A stretch of DNA of 64,000 nt. Source: an uncultured Acidobacteriota bacterium. Its GTDB lineage: Bacteria > Acidobacteriota > Vicinamibacteria > Vicinamibacterales > 2-12-FULL-66-21. The notes under the pieces were generated by a model. It had not been told where the DNA came from. It saw only the letters and a list, made by a program, of their open reading frames with translations, and ran no database searches. This document shows, piece by piece, positions 52,500 through 61,113 of the stretch. Position numbers and translations under genes: made by a program. Position 1 is the first letter of the stretch. Every line of letters starts with the position of its first letter. The stretch lies in assembly GCA_963804245.1 (NCBI GenBank), contig CAWDPQ010000017.1:157545-221544 (forward strand), given 5' to 3'.

Positions 52500-54704
52500 T
52501 CAGCGACTGTGCGCCGTTGCGGTCAATTCGTCCGCAAGTGCATCCGGATCGAAGACGGGCTGCCGGCACGTGAAGTCTCGGCAGACATAAGCTGCGGCAC
52601 CGGGCCCGGCCGTCATCGAGCCAATAAACGGAAGACGCTCGGCGAGTGCGGCCTGCTTGTCACCAGGTTCCACCGGCACCTGAATGGCGAACGGCAGGTA
52701 GTGTTTGGACACAGCAGAATGGAGCGCCAGGGTAGTTTGGACCCGGCGCGGTCCGACGATCACGATCTGGCTCAGACCGGCATGCCACGCCGATAGTGCG
52801 CTCAGCATCATCGGAGCGGCTCGACCGGCGGCGCCAATCTTCGGCCCGAGACGCGCGAGCGTGCGCTCGACTTTTTCCTGCGCGCCCTCAGCACCGGTCA
52901 GGTGCGCCAACGTCAAGAGATTGAGCACCGACACCGAGCTCGCTGCCGGTTCCGCGCCATCGTAGTCCTCTTTCAGACGCAGGAGCACGGTCGGATCGTT
53001 GCCCGTGGTGCTGAACCAGCCACCATCCTGCTCGTCCCAGAACTGCGTATCCTGACTTGTCTGTAGCGTCGTTGCCCACTCGAGCCACTGCGGATCGCCG
53101 CTCGCTTGAAACAGCTCGAGAAGCCCGAAGATCAGATACGCGTAGTCTTCGGCATATCCGTCGATCGCCGCCTCACCGTCCCGGTAGCGGCGCAACAGCC
53201 GAGCGTCGTCCGGGCGCCACAGCGTCGAGCGAATGAATCCCGCCGCGCGTTCAGCGGCCGCCAGATAGCGTGGGGCGGTCTCTCGATCCGAAAGCGTGCG
53301 TGCGGCGCGGGCGAATGCCGCAATCATCAGACCGTTCCAGGCGGTCAAGACCTTGTCGTCCAGGTGTGGCCGCGGTCGCCGCTCCCGCGCCTCGAACAAC
53401 GTGATTCTCGCCGTGCGCAGGATAGCCATCACTTCTTCGGCGGTCTTATTACTTCGGATCGCCACCTCTTCGATCGTCTGCGCCGTGTACAGCAGATTCC
53501 TGCCGGTGAACTCCCCCTGCGGATCGTGTGGAGCATTGCCGTCGGGCTCAATCCCCCACCGGCGCTTGACGATGGCTGCGTCCTCGCCGATGAGCGTCTG
53601 GATTTCGGCATCGCTCCAGATGTAGAACGCACCTTCGCTTTTGTGCGCCGTATTGGAACCCGCCTGCTCTGGCGGAATACTGTCGGCATCCTCTGCCGAA
53701 AAAAACGCGCCGTGCGGTCCGGTCATGTCGCGCAGCACGTATTCGAGGGTGTCCTCCGCGACGCCCGCGTAAAACGAATCGCCGGTCGCCTGCGCTGCCT
53801 CGAGATAGGCAAGAACGAGCTGCGCCTGGTCGTAGAGCATCTTTTCGAAGTGAGGGACCCGCCACTCGGCATCGACCGAATACCTGTGAAATCCACCGCC
53901 GATATGGTCGCGCATGCCGCCCAGGGCCATCGCGCGCAGAGTTTCCGCCGCCATCAACAAAGGTGCTTGCGCCCCGCGGCCTTCCGCCGTACGACGTGCG
54001 TGTTCGCGGAGGAGGAACAACAGCTCTGAAGGACGCGGAAATTTCGGCGCGTCGCCAAAGCCGCCGCGTCTGGTATCGAACGTCATCTGGTATTGCTCGA
54101 CCGCAACGTCGAGTGCGTCCACGGCGGCGACACCGGTCTCCCGCTGCCGTTTGCCGTCGCTCGTCACGAGCCGCAGTCGGTCGAACAGCTCAACCGCCGC
54201 CTGATCGACGCGGCCCCTGTCCTCCTTCCACACTCGCGCCAGCTCGTTCAGCAGATCGACGAATCCCGGGCGGCCCCATCGAGACGACGGCGGAAAATAG
54301 GTGCCGCCGTAGAAGGGTTTGAGCTCCGGAGTGAGGAACACCGACATCGGCCAGCCGCCGGATCCCGTGGTGGCCTGTACGAACGCCATATAGACGCGGT
54401 CGACATCCGGTCGTTCTTCGCGATCGACTTTGATGGAGATGAAGCTCTGGTTGAGCACGTCCGCGATCGACGCGTTCTCGAAGGACTCGTGCTCCATGAC
54501 GTGGCACCAGTGACAGGTCGAGTATCCGATCGAGAGGAAGATGGGCTTGTTTTCCTCGCGCGCACGCGCGAACGCCTCCTCTCCCCAGGGGTACCAATCC
54601 ACGGGATTGGCTTTGTGCTGCAGCAGATACGGGCTACGTTCGCCCGACAGGCGGTTCACGATCGATCCTGCGAGAGCGTCTTCATCCGAACGATCGTACA
54701 CCAC
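52500..54704 (-). CDS. DUF255/YyaL (SSP411-like) thioredoxin + glycosidase-like protein
   Basis: [62 protein letters not shown]. Confidence 0.95.
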
Positions 54705-54742
54705 ATGTAGAGGATAGAATTCTGCGAGCGAAGCGCGCCGCC

Positions 54743-55501
54743 GTGGATCTCGCAGTCGAAACCCGGAGCCTGAGACGAGAGTTTGCCGGCGTGCCCGCCG
54801 TTGACGGGATTGATCTGTCCGTGCCCGCCGGCAGCTTCTACGGGTTCCTCGGGCCCAACGGGGCCGGCAAATCGACGACGATCAAGTGCCTGACGGGCTT
54901 GCTGCGGCCGTCGTCCGGGAGTGTACGAATTCTCGGGCTGGACCCGCTTGCCGAGCCGGTCGCCGTCAAACGACGGATCGGCGTGATGCCGGAGGATCTC
55001 GCGCTCTTCGACCGTCTCACCGCCGAGGAAACGCTGTCGTTCGTGGCTCAGGTCCACGGCCTGGACGACGCGACGGCGGCCTCCCGCTCGAACGATCTGC
55101 TCGCGCTCATGGACCTGAAGCCGGCGTCCAATACGCTCGTCACCGACTTCTCGCACGGCATGCGCAAGAAACTCTCACTGGCTGCTGCTCTTCTTCCCGC
55201 GCCCCGACTGCTCTTTCTGGACGAGCCATTCGAAGGCATCGACGCCGTGGCCTCACGGCAGATCAAAGAGCTGCTGCAGTCGTTCGTCGGCCGCGGCGGG
55301 ACGATCTTCCTCACGTCTCACATCCTGGAGATTGTCGAACGCCTGTCGACGCATATCGGCGTGATCGCCCGCGGCCGGCTCGTCGCGCAAGGTCCGATCG
55401 ACGAGCTGCGCAGAAGCGCCGAGGGTGGCCGGACGCTCGAAGAGCTCTTCATCGCGCTCGTCGGCGGCGAGAGACCGCAGGCCGCGCTGGACTGGATCTG
55501 A
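54743..55501 (+). CDS. ABC transporter ATP-binding protein
   Basis: [26 protein letters not shown]. Confidence 0.95.
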
Positions 55502-55517
55502 TGCGGGTTCCAAGCGA

Positions 55518-57215
55518 ATGACGCCGACCGTCAGGATCCTGAAGGCATTTGCCTGGATGCGGTGGCGAGTGCTGATGAACTCGCTCGAGCGTAGTGGTTC
55601 GCGCGATCTCCTGGAGCGGTTCTCGCTCGCCATCGAGCAGCTGGGACCGATCATGGCCGCAATCCTGCTGATACCGTCCGCCGTGCTGCTGGCGGGTGCC
55701 GCCGCATACAGCGGGTGGTCACTGGCGCAGGGTTCGACGCGGCCGCTGCCGTTCGAGGTCATACGCTTCCTGTTGTTTGCCACCTGCGGCCTCACCGTTG
55801 TCGGACCGCTGTTCCTGCCGGCAGCCGATCGCACGCACGCCGTGCGCCTGCTGCTGTTACCGATCTCGGGGCCGATCCTCTACTTCGCGCAAACCGTCAC
55901 AGCTATCAGCGATCCCTGGATTCTGCTCGTCGTGCCGATCATTGCCGCGGTGCCACTCGGCCTAGCGGTCGGCGGCGCGCCAGGCACGGCGATGCTGGCC
56001 GCTGTGGGAGGTTTGCTGCTGCTGGTGATTCTCCTGGGGATTTCCTCCATCGTCACCAGCCTGATTCAGCTCATGGCGCGGAACCGCCGGCGCGGTGAGT
56101 TGCTGACGCTGCTCTTCATCCTCATCATTCCAGTCGTCGGTATGTTGCCCGCCCTGCTCGAGGACAACTCGCCGCCTACCCGGATCGAGGGCGGCGAGGC
56201 GGAAGAGCCGGGCACACCAGCGTGGCTCACCGCTCTGGAGAAACGGGTGCTGCCAGTCGTGCCATCGGAAATGTACGTCCGGGCGACGCGCGCGTCGGTA
56301 GATGGTCGTAAGTCGGACACGGTGGCTCCACTTTTGGGGTTGGCCGTTGCCGCCGGCCTCATCCACGCGACGGCGTTCGTCGTTTTCCGTCGGTTTCTCG
56401 ATTCGCCGGGCACCACGGGATCGCAACAAAGAGGCTCGAAAGGAAGGTCGCGAACCTGGAGGCTGCCGGGAGCCTCGCCGGCAACATCGGCCGTGACGAT
56501 CGCCCACATTCTCCTGACGCTTCGTACGCCGAGAGGGCGATCGACGGTGCTATCTCCGCTGATGGTGTTCGCGGTCTTGGCGGCGATGATGTGGAGAGGT
56601 TCGACGGCCGACTTCGACATCGTCCCACTCGAGAGCGGTGTCGGGCTGGCGATCTTCGGTTCCTTCATCAGCCTGCTGACCGTCCTGCCCCTGGCGATGA
56701 ATCAGTTCGCGATCGATGGTCCGGGATTGACCCTGGAGTTTCTCTCGCCGCTCGACGACAGGGATCTGCTTCGAGGAAAGGCTGTTGGCAATGCCTTCAT
56801 CGGGGCCATTCCGATGCTCATCTGCATTGCCGTCGCGGCGGTGCTCTTTCCGGGCGGTTCGCTGTCAGCATGGTTGTCGATACCCATCGGTATTGCCGCG
56901 TCGTATGCCCTGATTGCTCCTGTCGCGGCCGCGCTGTCAGCCGTGTTTCCCCGAACCGTCGATCTCAACAGCATCGGACGCGGCAGCAACGCGCACGGCG
57001 CAGCAACATTGCTGGGACTGCTGGCGAGCATGGCTTCGGGAGCAGCATCCCTCGGCGTCAACCTGGCCATCATGCGGTCGGTCGCCGCGCCTCAGCTCGC
57101 GCTGACATTGATGCTCATGTGGTTGGCGGGGTGCATTGTGGTAGCGCGATTACTCTTCGTGCCCGTTCGCGCGCTATTCGCGCGGCGGCGAGAGAACCTT
57201 GTCCTCATCCGCTGA
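55518..57215 (+). CDS. ABC-2 type exporter permease (duplicated TM architecture)
   Basis: About 12 TM segments; follows the ATPase; NQFAIDG...LLRGK motif. Confidence 0.8.
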   Translation: MTPTVRILKAFAWMRWRVLMNSLERSGSRDLLERFSLAIEQLGPIMAAILLIPSAVLLAGAAAYSGWSLAQGSTRPLPFEVIRFLLFATCGLTVVGPLFLPAADRTHAVRLLLLPISGPILYFAQTVTAISDPWILLVVPIIAAVPLGLAVGGAPGTAMLAAVGGLLLLVILLGISSIVTSLIQLMARNRRRGELLTLLFILIIPVVGMLPALLEDNSPPTRIEGGEAEEPGTPAWLTALEKRVLPVVPSEMYVRATRASVDGRKSDTVAPLLGLAVAAGLIHATAFVVFRRFLDSPGTTGSQQRGSKGRSRTWRLPGASPATSAVTIAHILLTLRTPRGRSTVLSPLMVFAVLAAMMWRGSTADFDIVPLESGVGLAIFGSFISLLTVLPLAMNQFAIDGPGLTLEFLSPLDDRDLLRGKAVGNAFIGAIPMLICIAVAAVLFPGGSLSAWLSIPIGIAASYALIAPVAAALSAVFPRTVDLNSIGRGSNAHGAATLLGLLASMASGAASLGVNLAIMRSVAAPQLALTLMLMWLAGCIVVARLLFVPVRALFARRRENLVLIR

Positions 57216-57413
57216 CTCTCAGCCGAAACCCCGCATCTGCCACATCGCGATTCCAACTTAATAGCGGAGCTGAACGTAGCTCGACCGTTCCACTGCTCAG
57301 CCGTTTGAAACTGTGTGTTGTTGGCTACCCACCGAGACCCTTGGAAGGTATATCGCCGCTTACACTGGATGCTCGAGTTATCTCGTTTTCCCTTGGTTTT
57401 TGGCCTTTTCCGA

Positions 57414-57429
57414 TGGCATATCGGTTGCT
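57414..57429 (+). promoter_or_regulatory. Sigma-54 (-24/-12) promoter 1
   Basis: TGGCATATCGGTTGCT matches TGGCA-N6-TTGCW with exact spacing. Confidence 0.7.
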
Positions 57430-57474
57430 GTCTTGGATGGCGTCGGTCGCTCGGCGGCCGGCAGCCGCTCCGGT

Positions 57475-57569
57475 GTTCAGCTGGAGCAACCGCCTCACCA
57501 TCATTAGCCTGCCAAAAGGCTGCAGGGAGTGTCTTCGGACCTCCCTGCCTTGTCATGTACGGGTCGTTC
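57475..57569 (+). ncRNA. Candidate structured RNA, copy 1
   Basis: GCC-AAAA-GGC and GCAGGGAG-T-GTC(TTCG)GAC-CTCCCTGC hairpins; flanks GCTGGAGCA, TTAG and ATGTACGG shared with copy 2. Confidence 0.6.
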
Positions 57570-57644
57570 GTTTGGAGCGCGTTCGGTTCGCGCTTCGCGT
57601 TCGTTTCATCAAAGTAGAGCAAGGACGAGTGCAGCACACCCCAT

Positions 57645-57660
57645 TGGCACTCGCGTTGCT
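57645..57660 (+). promoter_or_regulatory. Sigma-54 (-24/-12) promoter 2
   Basis: TGGCACTCGCGTTGCT, near-perfect consensus. Confidence 0.75.
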
Positions 57661-57687
57661 CTAATGACCGTGACACTTCGCTTCGGC

Positions 57688-57780
57688 GTTCCGCTGGAGC
57701 ACAAGCCCCGTCCTTAGACCTTGCCTACGGCGCAGGGAGAGTCGAACGACCTCCCTGTCCCGCCATGTACGGTCACGTTC
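57688..57780 (+). ncRNA. Candidate structured RNA, copy 2
   Basis: GCC-TAC-GGC and GCAGGGAG-A-GTC(GAAC)GAC-CTCCCTGT hairpins; same flanks, 210 nt after copy 1. Confidence 0.6.
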
Positions 57781-57828
57781 ATGCTTCCCGATAGCGCGTG
57801 ATATTTCTATCAGCGATGAGACATCTCG

Positions 57829-59361
57829 ATGCCCCGTAGCCGCTCACTCTGGATCGACACCGACTACTCCGATCGCTTCGGACCGTTGATGACCGATGGC
57901 GTGGCGGATGTGTGCGTCATTGGCGCCGGAGTGGCGGGGCTCACCACCGCGTATCTTCTCGCGAGAGAAGGCCACTCCGTCGTGGTTCTGGACGACGGGA
58001 GTCCAGGATGTGGACAGACGGGCGTGACCACGGCACACCTCTCGTATCAGATCGACGCCGGCTACAAAGAGATTCTCCGATTGCACGGACGCGAGGGCGC
58101 GAGGCTGGCCTACAACAGTCACCGTGCGGCCATCGATCGTATCGAGGCCATCGTTCAGCTCGAAGACATCCAGTGCGACTTCGAACGCGTCAGCGGATAC
58201 CTGTTCCCTGCCGAGGGTCATGGGCCAGCGGAGATCGACGCAGAGCTCGACTCGGCCAAAGCAGCCAGCGTCCTCGTTCAGCGGCTGAGCACTGCTCCCG
58301 TCCGAGGTTTTTACAGCGGACCGTGTCTTCACTACCCGCGACAGGCGCAGTTTCACCCCCTCAAATACCTGAACGGTCTGGTCAACGCCCTGGAACGACT
58401 CGGTAGTCGACTCCACACCGGCACGCGGGTGGAATCGGTGACTGGTGGCGACACGGCTGTGGTTTCAACTGCGGGTGGACGGTCGATCACCGCGAAGTCC
58501 GCCGTTGTCGCTACGAACGTCCCCTTCAACGATCGGCTGGCCATCCATACGAAGCAAGCGCCCTATCACACCTACGTCGTTGCTGCGCGTGTACCGCCGG
58601 ACACCATCACCCACGCGCTGTACTGGGATACCGCGGACCCGTATCACTACGCTCGGCTGCATCGTGTGACCAGCGCGCACATCGGCGGCGACAACGACGA
58701 GCCCGTTGATCTCCTGATCGTCGGCGGAGAGGATCACAAAGCCGGTCAGGCTCAGGACGCCGAACGGCGGTTCGGCAGCCTCGAGGCTTGGATGCGGGAG
58801 CGCTTTGCGGCCGCGGGCGACGTCGAGTTCCGGTGGTCGGGGCAGGTGATGGAAACGCAGGATGGTCTGGCATTCATCGGACGCAATCCGATGGACGCCG
58901 ACAACGTATATGTGGTGACCGGCGACTCGGGTATGGGACTGACGCACGGTACCATCGCCGGGATCCTGATCACCGACCTCATCGGCGGGCGACAGAATCC
59001 ATGGATGGATCTCTATGATCCATCGCGAATTCGCACTGGTGCCGCCGCCGAGTTCGTGAAGGAAAACCTGAACGTGGCCCTGCAATACACCTCGTGGCTG
59101 ACGGGCGGTGAAGTGAGCAGCGTCGAGGAAATTGCGCCGAACAGCGGTGCGGTGATCCGCGAGGGGTTGCTGAAGGTTGCCGTCTTCCGGGACGAATCAG
59201 GCGAGCTTCATCGTCGATCGGCTGTGTGCACCCATCTCGGTTGCATCGTCGCCTGGAATCCTGCCGCATCGACCTGGGACTGTCCATGCCACGGATCCCG
59301 CTTCGACAAGCTCGGAACAGTCATCAACGGCCCGGCCTCGACAGACCTGAAGCCGGTCTGA
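57829..59361 (+). CDS. FAD-dependent oxidoreductase with C-terminal Rieske [2Fe-2S] domain (YhfW-like)
   Basis: VIGAGVAGLT; CTHLGC...WDCPCHGSRF. Confidence 0.93.
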   Translation: MPRSRSLWIDTDYSDRFGPLMTDGVADVCVIGAGVAGLTTAYLLAREGHSVVVLDDGSPGCGQTGVTTAHLSYQIDAGYKEILRLHGREGARLAYNSHRAAIDRIEAIVQLEDIQCDFERVSGYLFPAEGHGPAEIDAELDSAKAASVLVQRLSTAPVRGFYSGPCLHYPRQAQFHPLKYLNGLVNALERLGSRLHTGTRVESVTGGDTAVVSTAGGRSITAKSAVVATNVPFNDRLAIHTKQAPYHTYVVAARVPPDTITHALYWDTADPYHYARLHRVTSAHIGGDNDEPVDLLIVGGEDHKAGQAQDAERRFGSLEAWMRERFAAAGDVEFRWSGQVMETQDGLAFIGRNPMDADNVYVVTGDSGMGLTHGTIAGILITDLIGGRQNPWMDLYDPSRIRTGAAAEFVKENLNVALQYTSWLTGGEVSSVEEIAPNSGAVIREGLLKVAVFRDESGELHRRSAVCTHLGCIVAWNPAASTWDCPCHGSRFDKLGTVINGPASTDLKPV

Positions 59362-59383: not shown

Positions 59384-60178
59384 CTAGCGTGGCATCGTCT
59401 TGGCCGGCGGCAGCTGTCGCAGGCGCGCCTTGACTCGCTGGAATTCCGGACTGTTCCGGCGACCGCCGGTGCGCGACGCTTTCCGCAGCCGCGCGGCACG
59501 CTCGGCGGGAGCGGGGTGACTCGAGAGGAAGACGTCGACGGAGCTCGGGTCGCGTCCCTGCTGACGTTGCAGGATCTCCATGAACTCGAGCAGGCCATGG
59601 GCGTCCCAACCGGCCCGTCGCACGATCTCGGCTCCGACGCGATCCGCTTCGCGTTCGTCGTCGCGACTGAACTTCAGCATGTAGCCGCCTGCCAGCACCT
59701 GCGCGCCAGCCTGCGCCGCCCGGGCGCTCCGATCGTTGCCCAGGACGGCGCCGAGCAGGCCCAACAAACCATCCGCGACGAGGCGCTTGGTCAGCTGATC
59801 CGCGGCGTGCCGTCGCGAAATGTGCGCCACTTCGTGCGCGAGGACGCCGGCGAGCTGCGCCTCGTTGGTCGCGGCCTGAAGGGCGCCCCGGTTGATCCAT
59901 ATCGGACCGCCGGGCAGCGCGAAGGCGTTGATCTCTTTGTAGTTCGCAATCGAGAAGCTATACGGATAGCGGGAACCGCCGGCACGGGACGCGATGCGAC
60001 GTCCGATCGATGTCACGTACGAAACCACCCTACGATCGGACACTACGGGCAAGTCTTTTCGCACCCGCTGCTGCGCCTGGCGACCGATCGCGATCTCCTC
60101 CTGAACCGAGATCAGAGCGTATCCGGCGAGGGGCACCGTCAGGAGAGCCAGCCAGAGGACCGGCGCGGCGCGCCTCAT
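59384..60178 (-). CDS. M48 family metallopeptidase
   Basis: INAFALPGG, LAHEVAH, FSRDDEREAD, LSSHP. Confidence 0.92.
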   Translation of the reverse strand: MRRAAPVLWLALLTVPLAGYALISVQEEIAIGRQAQQRVRKDLPVVSDRRVVSYVTSIGRRIASRAGGSRYPYSFSIANYKEINAFALPGGPIWINRGALQAATNEAQLAGVLAHEVAHISRRHAADQLTKRLVADGLLGLLGAVLGNDRSARAAQAGAQVLAGGYMLKFSRDDEREADRVGAEIVRRAGWDAHGLLEFMEILQRQQGRDPSSVDVFLSSHPAPAERAARLRKASRTGGRRNSPEFQRVKARLRQLPPAKTMPR

Positions 60179-61113
60179 ACGCGGGGCGCAGGGGCGGCGG
60201 GGATCTCCTCCGGTCTACGCCGCCGCAGCCGCGCGTTGGCGGCAGTCACCTCGACCCCGTACAGCAGAACCACAGCGGAAATGTAGACCCAGAACAGGAA
60301 CACCACAACGGCGGCGATCGATCCGTGCACGCTGAAGCGGGACATGTCGCGCACGTAGAAGGAAAAGCCCGCGAGCGCCCCGCGCCACAGAAGTCCGGTG
60401 ATGACCGCTCCCACCCAGACATCGCGGAATCGGACCTGGGCGTTGGGCACGAAATAGAACACCAGCCCGACGACGAGGATGAAGATGAGGGTTGTTGCCC
60501 ACTTCAAGGCGATGCTCTGCAACTCCTGGAGGATCGGAATGCGAGTGACGACTTCGGCAAACCACCGCGCTTCGACGACATTGACCGCACTGACCAGGAA
60601 AAGCCCGACGACCAGCAGCACGCTGGCGAGAAGCAGCATGACGAATGAAATCAGCTTGTGTTTGAAGAAGCTTGGCTGCTTCTCGACGCCCCAGGCGTGA
60701 TTGACGGCCGACGTGATCGCCCCGAAAACGCCCATCGCCGCCCACGTCATCAGCACGCTGCCCGCAACCCCCAGGCGAAGACCCGCCTGCTGCAAGGCGG
60801 TCAGTTGCTCGTCCACGAATCCGAATTTCTGGGGAAAGTATTTGAGCACGAAGTTCAATACCGCCTGCCGGTCCGCTTCGGTGCTCGTGATGCTGGCGAT
60901 AATGGAGAACGCGAGGAGGAAAAACGGGAACAGGGAGAGCAGCGCGTAATAGGCGATCGACGACGCAAACGTGAGGTCGTCGCTGCTGTAGAAGCTCATG
61001 AGCCCGCGCCAAATCGCGAGCCAGGTGAGGCGAATCTCGGCGCGACTTCTGGCGAGTATGCGACGATAAAAAGAAAAACGCGTCGGGTGCGGGCTCTTTA
61101 CCGGCGCACTCAC
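60175..61113 (-). CDS. YihY/BrkB family membrane protein
   Basis: ASSIAYYALLSLFPF, VNHAWGV, YFVPN, LFWVYISAVVLLYG. Confidence 0.92.
   Translation of the reverse strand: MSAPVKSPHPTRFSFYRRILARSRAEIRLTWLAIWRGLMSFYSSDDLTFASSIAYYALLSLFPFFLLAFSIIASITSTEADRQAVLNFVLKYFPQKFGFVDEQLTALQQAGLRLGVAGSVLMTWAAMGVFGAITSAVNHAWGVEKQPSFFKHKLISFVMLLLASVLLVVGLFLVSAVNVVEARWFAEVVTRIPILQELQSIALKWATTLIFILVVGLVFYFVPNAQVRFRDVWVGAVITGLLWRGALAGFSFYVRDMSRFSVHGSIAAVVVFLFWVYISAVVLLYGVEVTAANARLRRRRPEEIPAAPAPRV

What the first reader, a model, noticed from the sequence alone, without database searches (positions are those of the whole stretch)
57414..57780. Two tandem structured-RNA units, each behind its own sigma-54 promoter: candidate undescribed sRNA system
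Seen: in a 613-bp gap, two units share GTTC(A/C)GCTGGAGCA, TTAG(A)CC, a GCC/GGC hairpin, GCAGGGAG-N-GTC(loop)GAC-CTCCCTG(C/T) and ATGTACGG, 210 nt apart at the main stem. Within the hairpins, differences fall in loops and the bulge (TTCG vs GAAC, AAAA vs TAC, T vs A) plus one G-C to G-U change, so pairing is preserved; copy 1 has a C(UUCG)G tetraloop, favouring the + strand. Each unit is preceded by an exactly spaced -24/-12 element (57414-29 and 57645-60). Known: sigma-54 promoters need enhancer activators, and tandem sigma-54 sRNA paralogues exist (myxobacterial Pxr), but the sequence does not match that or any riboswitch I can recall. Inferred: paralogous trans-acting sRNAs, or tandem cis-regulators of the FAD-Rieske gene 49 nt downstream.
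Basis: partly seen in the sequence, partly recalled or inferred. Interest (0 to 1): 0.85.

Follow-up and report, generated by a model that had tools for sequence, protein, structure and literature searches.

The report
Sigma-54 small RNA pair, cell-wall regulon
The gap holds two sister copies of a previously uncatalogued small regulatory RNA of soil Acidobacteria (Vicinamibacterales), switched on by a sigma-54 promoter and an upstream enhancer that also precede two cell-wall cross-linking enzyme genes, so it is probably the RNA arm of a cell-wall stress response.

Summary
Window 57414-57780 holds two paralogous structured-RNA units, each behind an exact TGGCAY-N5-TTGCT sigma-54 promoter. These are the only two such sites in the 64 kb (0.06 expected).

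The RNA matches no Rfam family. It is a conserved gene: 96 of 112 genomes of the same Vicinamibacterales family (53 of 55 high-quality ones) carry 1-2 copies. Weaker homologues occur in five other families of the order, and none outside the order among 401 Acidobacteriota genomes sampled.

All 67 units examined have a sigma-54 promoter. Helices P2 and P4 are 98% paired, with compensatory changes in 13 of 19 pairs. Frequent G-U pairs fix the strand.

At least 34 of 67 units face a convergent gene, so this is a stand-alone sRNA, not a leader. Window unit 2 lacks a terminator and probably also reads into the FAD-Rieske gene.

A phased 20-bp palindromic enhancer (GTGTGTNG-N4-CTACMCAC; window 57313-57332) precedes the promoter. 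The same enhancer plus sigma-54 promoter precedes 21 of 27 LdtD-like L,D-transpeptidase genes and 27 of 30 class A PBP genes in the family (controls 0 of 57).

Best reading: the riboregulatory arm of a sigma-54 cell-wall remodelling regulon. Targets, the activator and transcript ends are unproven, because no RNA-seq tool was available.

The parts
57313..57332 (.). Upstream activator sequence (enhancer): the imperfect 20-bp palindrome GTGTGTTGTTGGCTACCCAC, about 100 bp upstream of promoter 1 and about 330 bp upstream of promoter 2.
   Evidence: The motif is 8-11-fold enriched upstream of the sRNA promoters, depending on the 7-mer. Its consensus is GTGTGTNG-N4-CTACMCAC, with helical phasing at about -67, -78, -89, -99 and -110. 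This site is the best-scoring PWM hit in the whole genome. The same motif stands before LdtD-like and aPBP genes.
57383..57412 (.). A/T-rich tract between the enhancer and the -24 element (tcgttttcccttggtttttggccttttccg). It may be a DNA-bending or IHF-like site; this is inferred.
   Evidence: Hexamers such as GAAAAC, GAAATC and TTTTCG are 7-9-fold enriched in the 60 bp before the -24 element of the 67 units. No protein was tested.
57414..57429 (+). Sigma-54 promoter 1 (-24 TGGCAT, -12 TTGCT).
   Evidence: rpoN is present in the genome. A homologous promoter occurs in all 67 units.
57440..57563 (+). sRNA unit 1, the long form; the start is inferred from the promoter. It comprises P1 5' hairpin 57440-57465, P2 57467-57487 (loop GUUCA), C/A-rich G-poor linker 57488-57506, possible P3 57507-57520, P4 57522-57548 (UUCG tetraloop) and tail CUUGUCAUGUACGGG 57549-57563.
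   Evidence: Fold. CM score 108 bits. P2/P4 covariation. P1 folds as a hairpin in 48 of 57 long-form units. P3 is not supported.
57573..57607 (+). Terminator-like hairpin with a T-rich tail after unit 1. It overlaps a short direct repeat, CGCGTTCGGTTC / CGCGTTCGTTTC.
   Evidence: See (9-bp stem and tail; D4). The real 3' end is unknown.
57645..57660 (+). Sigma-54 promoter 2 (TGGCACTCGCGTTGCT, an exact match to the consensus).
57671..57772 (+). sRNA unit 2, the short form without P1; the start is inferred. It comprises P2 57680-57700, linker 57701-57722, possible P3 57723-57731, P4 57732-57758 and tail CCCGCCAUGUACGG 57759-57772. No terminator follows.
   Evidence: See (84 bits; -12 element to core 12 nt). 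The same short second copy occurs in the sister genome G001.
57829..59361 (+). FAD-dependent oxidoreductase (DAO family) with a C-terminal Rieske domain. It is probably transcribed by read-through from promoter 2.
   Evidence: Pfam hits DAO 1e-51 and Rieske 3e-11. There is no sigma-70-like promoter in the gap. The gene is co-oriented 25-709 nt behind 20 of 67 units.

Best explanation
The gap encodes two paralogous copies of a new small RNA, about 100-135 nt long, that is vertically inherited in Vicinamibacterales (Acidobacteriota).

**Transcription.** Each copy is transcribed by sigma-54 RNA polymerase. An enhancer-binding activator is expected to bind the 20-bp palindrome at 57313-57332 and contact the promoters by DNA looping.

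**Regulon.** In this bacterial family the same enhancer-plus-promoter cassette also drives an LdtD/YcbB-like L,D-transpeptidase gene and a class A penicillin-binding protein gene. The RNA is therefore most likely the post-transcriptional arm of a cell-wall (peptidoglycan repair or remodelling) stress regulon.

**Mode of action (inferred).** It probably acts in trans, with Hfq, by base-pairing through its unpaired C/A-rich linker and/or the invariant GUUC loop to G-rich ribosome-binding regions of target mRNAs. P4 serves as the terminator and stability hairpin.

**The two window copies.** Unit 1 is a stand-alone gene. Unit 2 lacks the 5' hairpin and a terminator, and probably also serves as the leader of the FAD-Rieske mRNA.

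**Shown here:** conservation, promoters, enhancer, helices P1/P2/P4, strand, synteny, and the shared enhancer at peptidoglycan genes.

**Inferred:** actual transcription, the identity of the activator, trans base-pairing, the targets, and the inducing signal.
For: **Promoters.** The exact sigma-54 promoter pattern occurs only at these two places in the 64 kb. rpoN is present, as are at least 33 sigma-54 activator genes.

**Distribution.** The covariance model finds 1-2 copies in 96 of 112 family genomes, 53 of 55 high-quality ones. Weaker hits of 40-60 bits occur in five other families of the order. None occur outside the order in a 401-genome phylum sample. All 67 units have a -24/-12 element 11-95 nt upstream.

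**Structure.** P2 and P4 are 98.2% paired. Both sides change in 13 of 19 pairs. No shuffle out of 500 reached these values, and slid controls are 31-59% paired. G-U is common: it is the commonest pair at one P2 position and makes up about half of one P4 position, which fits only the promoter strand. The P1 hairpin has z < -1.5 in 48 of 57 units.

**Stand-alone gene.** Twenty-eight units converge on M48 or BrkB genes and six on a permease gene. Only 20 are followed by the co-oriented FAD-Rieske gene. Homologues in other families end in P4 plus a U-run, which is an intrinsic terminator.

**Enhancer.** The motif is enriched and phased and is the top PWM hit in the genome. Strict enhancer-plus-promoter patterns hit only sRNA loci, aPBP genes and LdtD-like genes in 41 genomes, with 0 hits for the reversed control patterns (identities). 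The cassette is present at 21 of 27 LdtD-like and 27 of 30 aPBP orthologues, against 0 of 57 control windows.

**Synteny and chaperone.** In at least 35 genomes the sRNA and the LdtD-like gene lie in one block of roughly 10-20 kb; an NtrC-type activator gene lies in that block in the own genome and next to BrkB in the loci examined. An Hfq homologue is present; CsrA and ProQ were not found.
Against: - There are no expression data.
- No target was found. There is no outstanding antisense match in the genome and no signal at neighbouring genes' start regions.
- The basal P4 arms (CAGGGAG / CUCCCUG) and P2 are nearly invariant in sequence. That is unusual for a mere terminator or structural helix and could mean protein recognition.
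- Most units in the window's own family have the conserved tail CCUGYCAUGUACGG after P4 rather than a clear U-tract.
- The linker, the proposed seed, is only moderately conserved.
- The candidate activator also occurs next to BrkB in related families where no sRNA was found nearby.
- The alignment used for pair counts was fitted to the model's structure.
Confidence: 0.68

Rival explanations
1. The RNA is a protein-binding (decoy or sponge) RNA rather than a base-pairing regulator. The invariant P2 hairpin (GUUC loop) and the P4 arms would be recognition sites for an RNA-binding protein, as GlmY titrates RapZ or CsrB titrates CsrA. The short tandem repeats often found just downstream might add further sites.
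For: P2 and basal P4 are conserved at sequence level well beyond what pairing needs. No base-pairing target was found. Short tandem-repeat arrays follow 21 of 67 units, against 8% of random windows. GTTC is strand-biased downstream.
Against: No candidate binding protein was identified, and CsrA and ProQ were not found. The repeat units differ between genomes, and only 7 of 67 units have four or more GTTC motifs. An Hfq homologue and a G-poor unpaired linker fit ordinary base-pairing sRNAs.
Confidence: 0.2
2. The units are cis-acting 5' leaders (attenuator or riboswitch) of the FAD-Rieske oxidoreductase gene. The stand-alone copies would be remnants.
For: The FAD-Rieske start codon lies 25-83 nt behind many units. 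Window unit 2 has no terminator, and no sigma-70-like promoter precedes the ORF. P4 could act as an attenuator.
Against: Only 20 of 67 units have this gene downstream. At least 34 face a convergent gene yet keep promoter, enhancer and structure. Distant homologues end in a terminator. There is no ligand-pocket-like conserved junction and no Rfam riboswitch hit.
Confidence: 0.08
3. It is a chance similarity, a REP-like repeat, or a small protein-coding gene.
For: The high-GC sequence gives open frames across the gap.
Against: There are 1-2 copies per genome. The locus is syntenic and vertically inherited. Compensatory pair changes are seen. The AUG in the tail is absent in several homologues, and the sequence after it is not conserved.
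Confidence: 0.02

Closest known systems
GlmY (and GlmZ) sRNAs with the QseE/QseF (GlrK/GlrR) two-component system of Enterobacteriaceae
   Same: These are sRNA genes with sigma-54 promoters, activated by an NtrC-type response regulator bound at conserved upstream sites, with an IHF-type element in between (PMC3045617). They form a paralogous sRNA pair. The same activator also drives a cell-envelope gene, rpoE, and the circuit serves envelope homeostasis (PMC6075780, PMC4152352).
   Different: There is no sequence or structure similarity (no Rfam hit). GlmY works as a protein decoy for RapZ and controls glmS; here the mode of action and the targets are unknown. The co-regulated genes here are peptidoglycan cross-linking enzymes. 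The activator gene is several kb away, not adjacent, and no kinase gene stands next to it.
Qrr1-5 sRNAs with LuxO (Vibrio)
   Same: There are several paralogous Hfq-type sRNAs of about 100 nt, each with its own sigma-54 promoter, driven by one NtrC-type response regulator with a very small regulon (own knowledge).
   Different: The sequence is unrelated. Qrr sRNAs serve quorum sensing. They are spread over loci rather than arranged in tandem, and they share an invariant seed, which is not evident here.
Pxr sRNA of Myxococcus and other myxobacteria
   Same: Pxr has three stem-loops, and paralogues arose by duplication in some lineages (PMC5568312, PMC5684412). Sigma-54-type control of Pxr is from my own knowledge and was not verified in those texts (one search found the term in none).
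   Different: The sequence is unrelated. Pxr gates fruiting-body development. It has no known link to peptidoglycan genes.
E. coli envelope-stress programme LdtD + PBP1B (+PBP6a), and envelope-stress sRNAs (MicA, RybB, MicL, CpxQ)
   Same: An L,D-transpeptidase and a class A PBP are co-deployed as a 'PG repair machine' under envelope stress (PMC6428754). Envelope stress regulons typically include an sRNA arm (own knowledge).
   Different: In E. coli control is by Cpx and sigma-E, not sigma-54. The sRNAs are unrelated. That this system responds to stress is inferred, not shown.

Membership tests
Any Rfam 15 family (including Acido-1, Acido-Lenti-1, Pxr, Qrr, GlmY_tke1/GlmZ_SraJ, 6S) | Covariance-model score at or above the family's gathering threshold. 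| tested here: not met
   Only a tRNA elsewhere in the window passes the gathering threshold. At E <= 10 on 57200-57850 there are only two chance-level hits, HCV_X3 at 14.8 bits and Mu-gpT-DE at 14.1 bits.
Sigma-54 / enhancer-binding-protein dependent sRNA genes (a kind, not a homology family) | A -24 GG / -12 GC promoter with exact spacing directly upstream of the RNA, conserved in homologues, and rpoN in the genome. | tested here: met
   See (67 of 67 units).
Sigma-54 / enhancer-binding-protein dependent sRNA genes | An upstream activator site for a bEBP, and a cognate bEBP. | tested here: inconclusive
   A conserved, phased palindrome is present. The cognate activator is not identified. A syntenic NtrC-type response regulator is a candidate only.
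Sigma-54 / enhancer-binding-protein dependent sRNA genes | A discrete non-coding transcript whose level depends on rpoN and the activator. | not testable with these tools
Stand-alone trans-acting sRNA | No co-oriented downstream gene, and its own terminator. | tested here: met
   At least 34 of 67 units face convergent genes. P4 plus a U-run is seen in other families and in some members of the window's family. Window unit 1 has a terminator-like site; unit 2 has none.
Structured RNA (evolutionarily conserved secondary structure) | Compensatory base-pair changes above controls. | tested here: met
   P2 and P4 are supported. P1 is supported by per-sequence folding. P3 and the P4 extension are not supported.
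REP-like / dispersed repeat | Many copies per genome without promoters. | tested here: not met
   There are two copies in the own genome and 1-2 in relatives, all with promoters.

The most novel reading that the evidence does not exclude
Vicinamibacterales have a previously unknown sigma-54 / NtrC-type cell-wall stress response. Its fixed outputs are an L,D-transpeptidase, a class A PBP and this sRNA. It would be an independent invention of the E. coli LdtD-PBP1B 'repair machine' logic and of the QseF-GlmY logic. In this reading the RNA's invariant P2 loop and Shine-Dalgarno-like / anti-Shine-Dalgarno-like P4 arms (CAGGGAG / CUCCCUG) are functional recognition elements for a protein or the ribosome, not just a terminator. 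The D-amino-acid-oxidase-like FAD-Rieske enzyme, read through from the RNA, would then belong to the same peptidoglycan programme.
Probability: 0.3. Interest if true: 0.78.

Novelty: new member of a known kind. Interest (0 to 1): 0.66.

Why it matters
Vicinamibacterales are among the most abundant soil bacteria and are mostly uncultured. Almost nothing is known about their gene regulation, and I found no described sRNA for them.

This locus gives a complete circuit predicted from sequence alone: an enhancer, a sigma-54 promoter, a structured sRNA, and two co-regulated peptidoglycan cross-linking enzymes. The circuit is conserved across a whole family.

If confirmed, it would be the first defined envelope or cell-wall stress regulon in Acidobacteriota. 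It would also be a further independent case of bacteria pairing a sigma-54 activator with a small RNA. It provides a covariance model and a testable regulon for metatranscriptome work.

Tried and rejected
- **Rfam.** Scans at gathering and at E <= 10 gave nothing.
- **Target search by antisense BLAST.** Searching the reverse complement of both units against the genome gave a best hit of 16 nt at E = 0.14, mostly to the GC-rich P1. Nothing was convincing.
- **Duplex energies against start regions.** The linker was tested against 12 neighbouring genes, including the candidate activator, Mla genes, M48, BrkB and FAD-Rieske. None fell in the lowest 2% of random windows, and the method is crude.
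- **P3 and the P4 extension.** P3 in two registers and the GGC/GYC extension of P4 were no better than shuffled or slid controls.
- **Small ORF from the tail AUG.** This was rejected. The AUG is missing in several homologues and the peptide is not conserved.
- **Strict enhancer-plus-promoter patterns.** These were too strict for many genomes, hitting only 6 and 3 of 41. A PWM scan of orthologue loci replaced them.
- **A PWM hit at C15:53893.** It lies inside an outer-membrane-protein ORF and was dismissed as chance.
- **Cognate activator.** It could not be proven. The syntenic NtrC-type regulator also occurs where no sRNA was found nearby.
- **Literature.** I found no paper on this RNA.

Full report
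**1. Observation.**
The 613-bp gap between the stop of a membrane-protein ORF (57215) and the ATG of a FAD/Rieske oxidoreductase (57829) contains two similar units. A pairwise alignment and the repeat finder recover the shared blocks. One is CGCTYCGGYGTTCMGCTGGAGCA, with a spacing of 213 nt. The other is GCAGGGAG-N-GTC-loop-GAC-CTCCCTG...CATGTACGG, with a spacing of 210 nt.

The pattern TGGCAYNNNNNTTGCT occurs exactly twice in the 64-kb window, at 57414 and 57645. Each site lies just upstream of a unit. Shuffles give 0.06 matches on average, and none of 100 gave two.

Both units fold better than shuffles on the + strand, with z = -3.2 and -3.6.

**2. Not a known RNA, not a repeat.**
Rfam 15 gives nothing for this region at gathering thresholds. 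At E <= 10 it gives only two chance-level hits. The window's own genome has only these two copies.

**3. A conserved gene family.**
A pattern search in 60 relatives found true homologues only in the window's own family. Related contigs name the organisms as Vicinamibacterales / Acidobacteriota MAGs.

A covariance model of P2 and P4 (R1) gave these results:

| Sample searched | Genomes with a hit | Note |
|---|---|---|
| Window's family | 96 of 112 (53 of 55 high-quality; 25 of 29 genera) | 1-2 copies each |
| Order | weaker hits, 40-60 bits | five other families |
| Phylum (rebuilt model R2) | 5 of 401 | all inside the order |

Two copies per genome occur in about a dozen genomes. They are in tandem in G000, G001, G029, G084, G114, G118 and G127, on opposite strands in G005 and G095, and at separate loci in G007 and G065.

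**4. Promoters.**
All 67 units examined have a -24/-12 element with GG and GC fixed and at most 2 mismatches to TGGCACN5TTGCT. This includes the distant ones in other families.

There are two architectures. In the long form the -12 element lies 26-95 nt (mostly 30-46) before the conserved core, which leaves room for a 5' hairpin, P1. In the short form the distance is 11-14 nt and P1 is absent. Window unit 1 is long and unit 2 is short. The sister genome G001 has the same long-plus-short tandem.

rpoN is present.

**5. Structure and strand.**
On a 68-sequence model-guided alignment, P2 and P4 are 98.2% paired. Thirteen of 19 pairs show changes on both sides. No shuffle out of 500 reaches any measure, and slid controls are 31-59% paired.

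G-U pairs are frequent. G-U is the commonest pair at one P2 position and makes up 29 of 68 at the base of P4. On the other strand these would be A-C mismatches, so the RNA is on the promoter strand.

P1 varies in sequence but folds as a hairpin in 48 of 57 long units (mean z = -2.6). It shows obvious compensations, such as GUCGGG/CCCGGC versus GUCCGG/CCGGGC.

The small P3 hairpin and a GGC/GYC extension of P4 are not supported.

Sequence conservation is highest in P2 with its GUUC loop, in GCAACC, in CCUGCC and in the P4 arms CAGGGAG/CUCCCUG. The linker is G-poor and only moderately conserved.

**6. Stand-alone gene, with read-through in some genomes.**
The locus is syntenic. A DUF255 thioredoxin gene, an ABC ATPase gene and a permease gene lie upstream. 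A BepA-like M48 protease gene and a YihY/BrkB gene lie downstream on the opposite strand.

The downstream context of the 67 units is as follows:

| Downstream context | Units |
|---|---|
| Convergent M48 or BrkB gene | 28 |
| Convergent permease gene | 6 |
| Co-oriented FAD-Rieske gene, 25-709 nt away | 20 |
| Co-oriented BrkB gene | 1 |
| No recognised neighbour within the locus held | 12 |

Homologues in other families, and a few in the window's family, have P4 followed by a U-run, which is an intrinsic terminator. Most members of the window's family instead have the conserved tail CCUGYCAUGUACGG.

In the window a terminator-like hairpin follows unit 1 (57573-57607). None follows unit 2. No sigma-70-like promoter lies in the gap. 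Unit 2 therefore probably also serves as the leader of the FAD-Rieske mRNA.

**7. Enhancer.**
Heptamers such as CTACACA, TACCCAC and GTTACCC are 8-11-fold enriched upstream of the promoters. They form the right half of a 20-bp imperfect palindrome, GTGTGTNG-N4-CTACMCAC.

The right half-site starts at about -67, -78, -89, -99 and -110 from the -24 element. This is helical phasing, as expected for a sigma-54 activator site.

The 60 bp before the -24 element are enriched in A/T tracts.

The window copy (57313-57332) is the best PWM hit in the whole genome. It is the only strict match combined with a sigma-54 promoter.

**8. The same enhancer drives peptidoglycan genes.**
A strict enhancer-plus-promoter pattern hit 7 places in 41 genomes, with 0 hits for the reversed control. 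Four are sRNA loci and three lie before orthologous class A PBP genes (Transgly plus Transpeptidase) in three genera.

The opposite enhancer orientation hit 3 places, again with 0 in the control. One is an sRNA locus. Two lie before orthologous LdtD/YcbB-like L,D-transpeptidase genes (Scaffold, PG_binding_1 and YkuD domains). One of these is in the window's own genome at C17:231144-231267, 16 kb from the sRNA.

A PWM built only from sRNA loci was then used to scan orthologue loci:

| Windows scanned | Enhancer (score >= 10) with sigma-54 promoter |
|---|---|
| LdtD-like orthologues | 21 of 27 |
| Class A PBP orthologues | 27 of 30 |
| Control windows inside the same genes | enhancer 0 of 57; promoter 1 of 57 |

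The enhancer-to-promoter spacing is again phased, at about 57, 78, 89, 100 and 110 nt.

The LdtD-like gene lies on the same contig, roughly 10-20 kb from the sRNA, in at least 35 genomes.

In the own genome an NtrC-type response regulator gene (REC, AAA+ and HTH_8 domains) lies between the sRNA and the LdtD-like gene. It heads an operon with MlaE, MlaF and MlaD. It is 91-95% identical in several other genera and lies next to BrkB in the related loci examined. It is the obvious candidate activator. However, it also occurs in related families where no sRNA was found nearby, so this remains unproven.

**9. Mechanism.**
An Hfq homologue is present, and CsrA and ProQ were not detected.

My best reading is a trans-acting, Hfq-assisted sRNA that forms the post-transcriptional arm of a sigma-54 cell-wall remodelling regulon. 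In E. coli, LdtD and PBP1B act together as a repair machine under envelope stress (PMC6428754). The sigma-54 regulator QseF/GlrR drives the sRNA GlmY and also rpoE (PMC3045617, PMC6075780). These are functional analogies, not homology.

No target could be predicted. The near-invariant P2 and P4 sequences keep a protein-binding mode open.

**10. Context from earlier notes of this scan.**
Earlier notes list several other sigma-54-driven sRNA genes at different loci in Vicinamibacterales. None shares sequence words with this one. I also saw one such candidate in this genome at C18:17155. These are unchecked leads. They suggest the lineage uses sigma-54 sRNAs widely, which slightly lowers the surprise of finding one more. 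They do not bear on the new link to peptidoglycan genes.

**11. Verdict.**
This is a real, new sRNA family of a known kind. It is core to a soil-bacterial family and present here as a tandem pair. Its regulon is defined by sequence.

My confidence by claim:

| Claim | Confidence |
|---|---|
| It is a sigma-54-driven structured sRNA gene | about 0.9 |
| It shares an activator with the LdtD-like and aPBP genes | about 0.75 |
| It acts by base-pairing | about 0.5 |

Transcription itself, the transcript ends, the activator and the targets still need experiments.

Noticed in passing
own genome G000 C17:231144-231267 (outside the window; locus L114:13645-13768): An LdtD/YcbB-like L,D-transpeptidase gene is preceded by the same palindromic enhancer (TGGGTAACCAAATTCACAC) and a sigma-54 promoter (GGGCACTCCTATTGCT). 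The promoter ends only 15 nt before the ATG, so the mRNA would be nearly leaderless. The arrangement is conserved in 21 of 27 orthologues.
   Followed up: yes
L155-L184 (for example G001:C49:64201-65419): Class A PBP orthologues in 27 of 30 family genomes carry the same enhancer plus a sigma-54 promoter ending 12-53 nt before the start codon. The window's own genome (91% complete) lacks a close orthologue.
   Followed up: yes
own genome G000 C17:223134-224537, minus strand (L114:5634-7037): An NtrC-type response-regulator sigma-54 activator has no adjacent kinase gene and heads an operon with MlaE, MlaF and MlaD. It is 91-95% identical across genera. It lies between the sRNA and the LdtD-like gene and is the candidate activator of the regulon.
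   Followed up: partly
120 nt downstream of the sRNA in L047, L051, L052, L054, L055, L058, L061, L093, L097 and others; window 57578-57607: Short tandem-repeat arrays (period 6-10 nt, 3-11 copies, with a unit that differs between genomes) follow 21 of 67 sRNA units, against 8% of random windows. Strong arrays occur in 15% against 0.7%. This is unexplained.
   Followed up: partly
own genome G000 C18:17155 (+): Another orphan sigma-54 promoter (TGGCATCCGGATTGCT) is followed by a 5' hairpin, a C-rich CACCUCACCCCAAC linker and a CGGGAGGC...GCCUCCCG hairpin. This is a second, different sigma-54 sRNA candidate with a similar layout.
   Followed up: no
own genome G000 C14:~44459 (-): An enhancer-like site (AGGTGTATCCAGCTACACAC, PWM score 16.3) lies about 100 nt upstream of a sigma-54-like promoter (GGGCAGAGGAATTGCT), before a single-domain CheY-like response regulator gene. 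It may be a further regulon member.
   Followed up: no
own genome G000 C15:53754-53800: A sigma-54 promoter (TGGCACGTGTGGTGCT) lies 28 nt before the ATG of a beta-barrel outer-membrane-protein-like gene. The gene sits directly after one of four clustered sigma-54 activator genes.
   Followed up: no
window 52500-57215 and 59384-61113: The neighbourhood has an envelope theme. It includes a DUF255 thioredoxin-like protein, an ABC ATPase with a 596-aa membrane protein that has no family hit, a BepA-like M48 protease and a YihY/BrkB membrane protein.
   Followed up: partly
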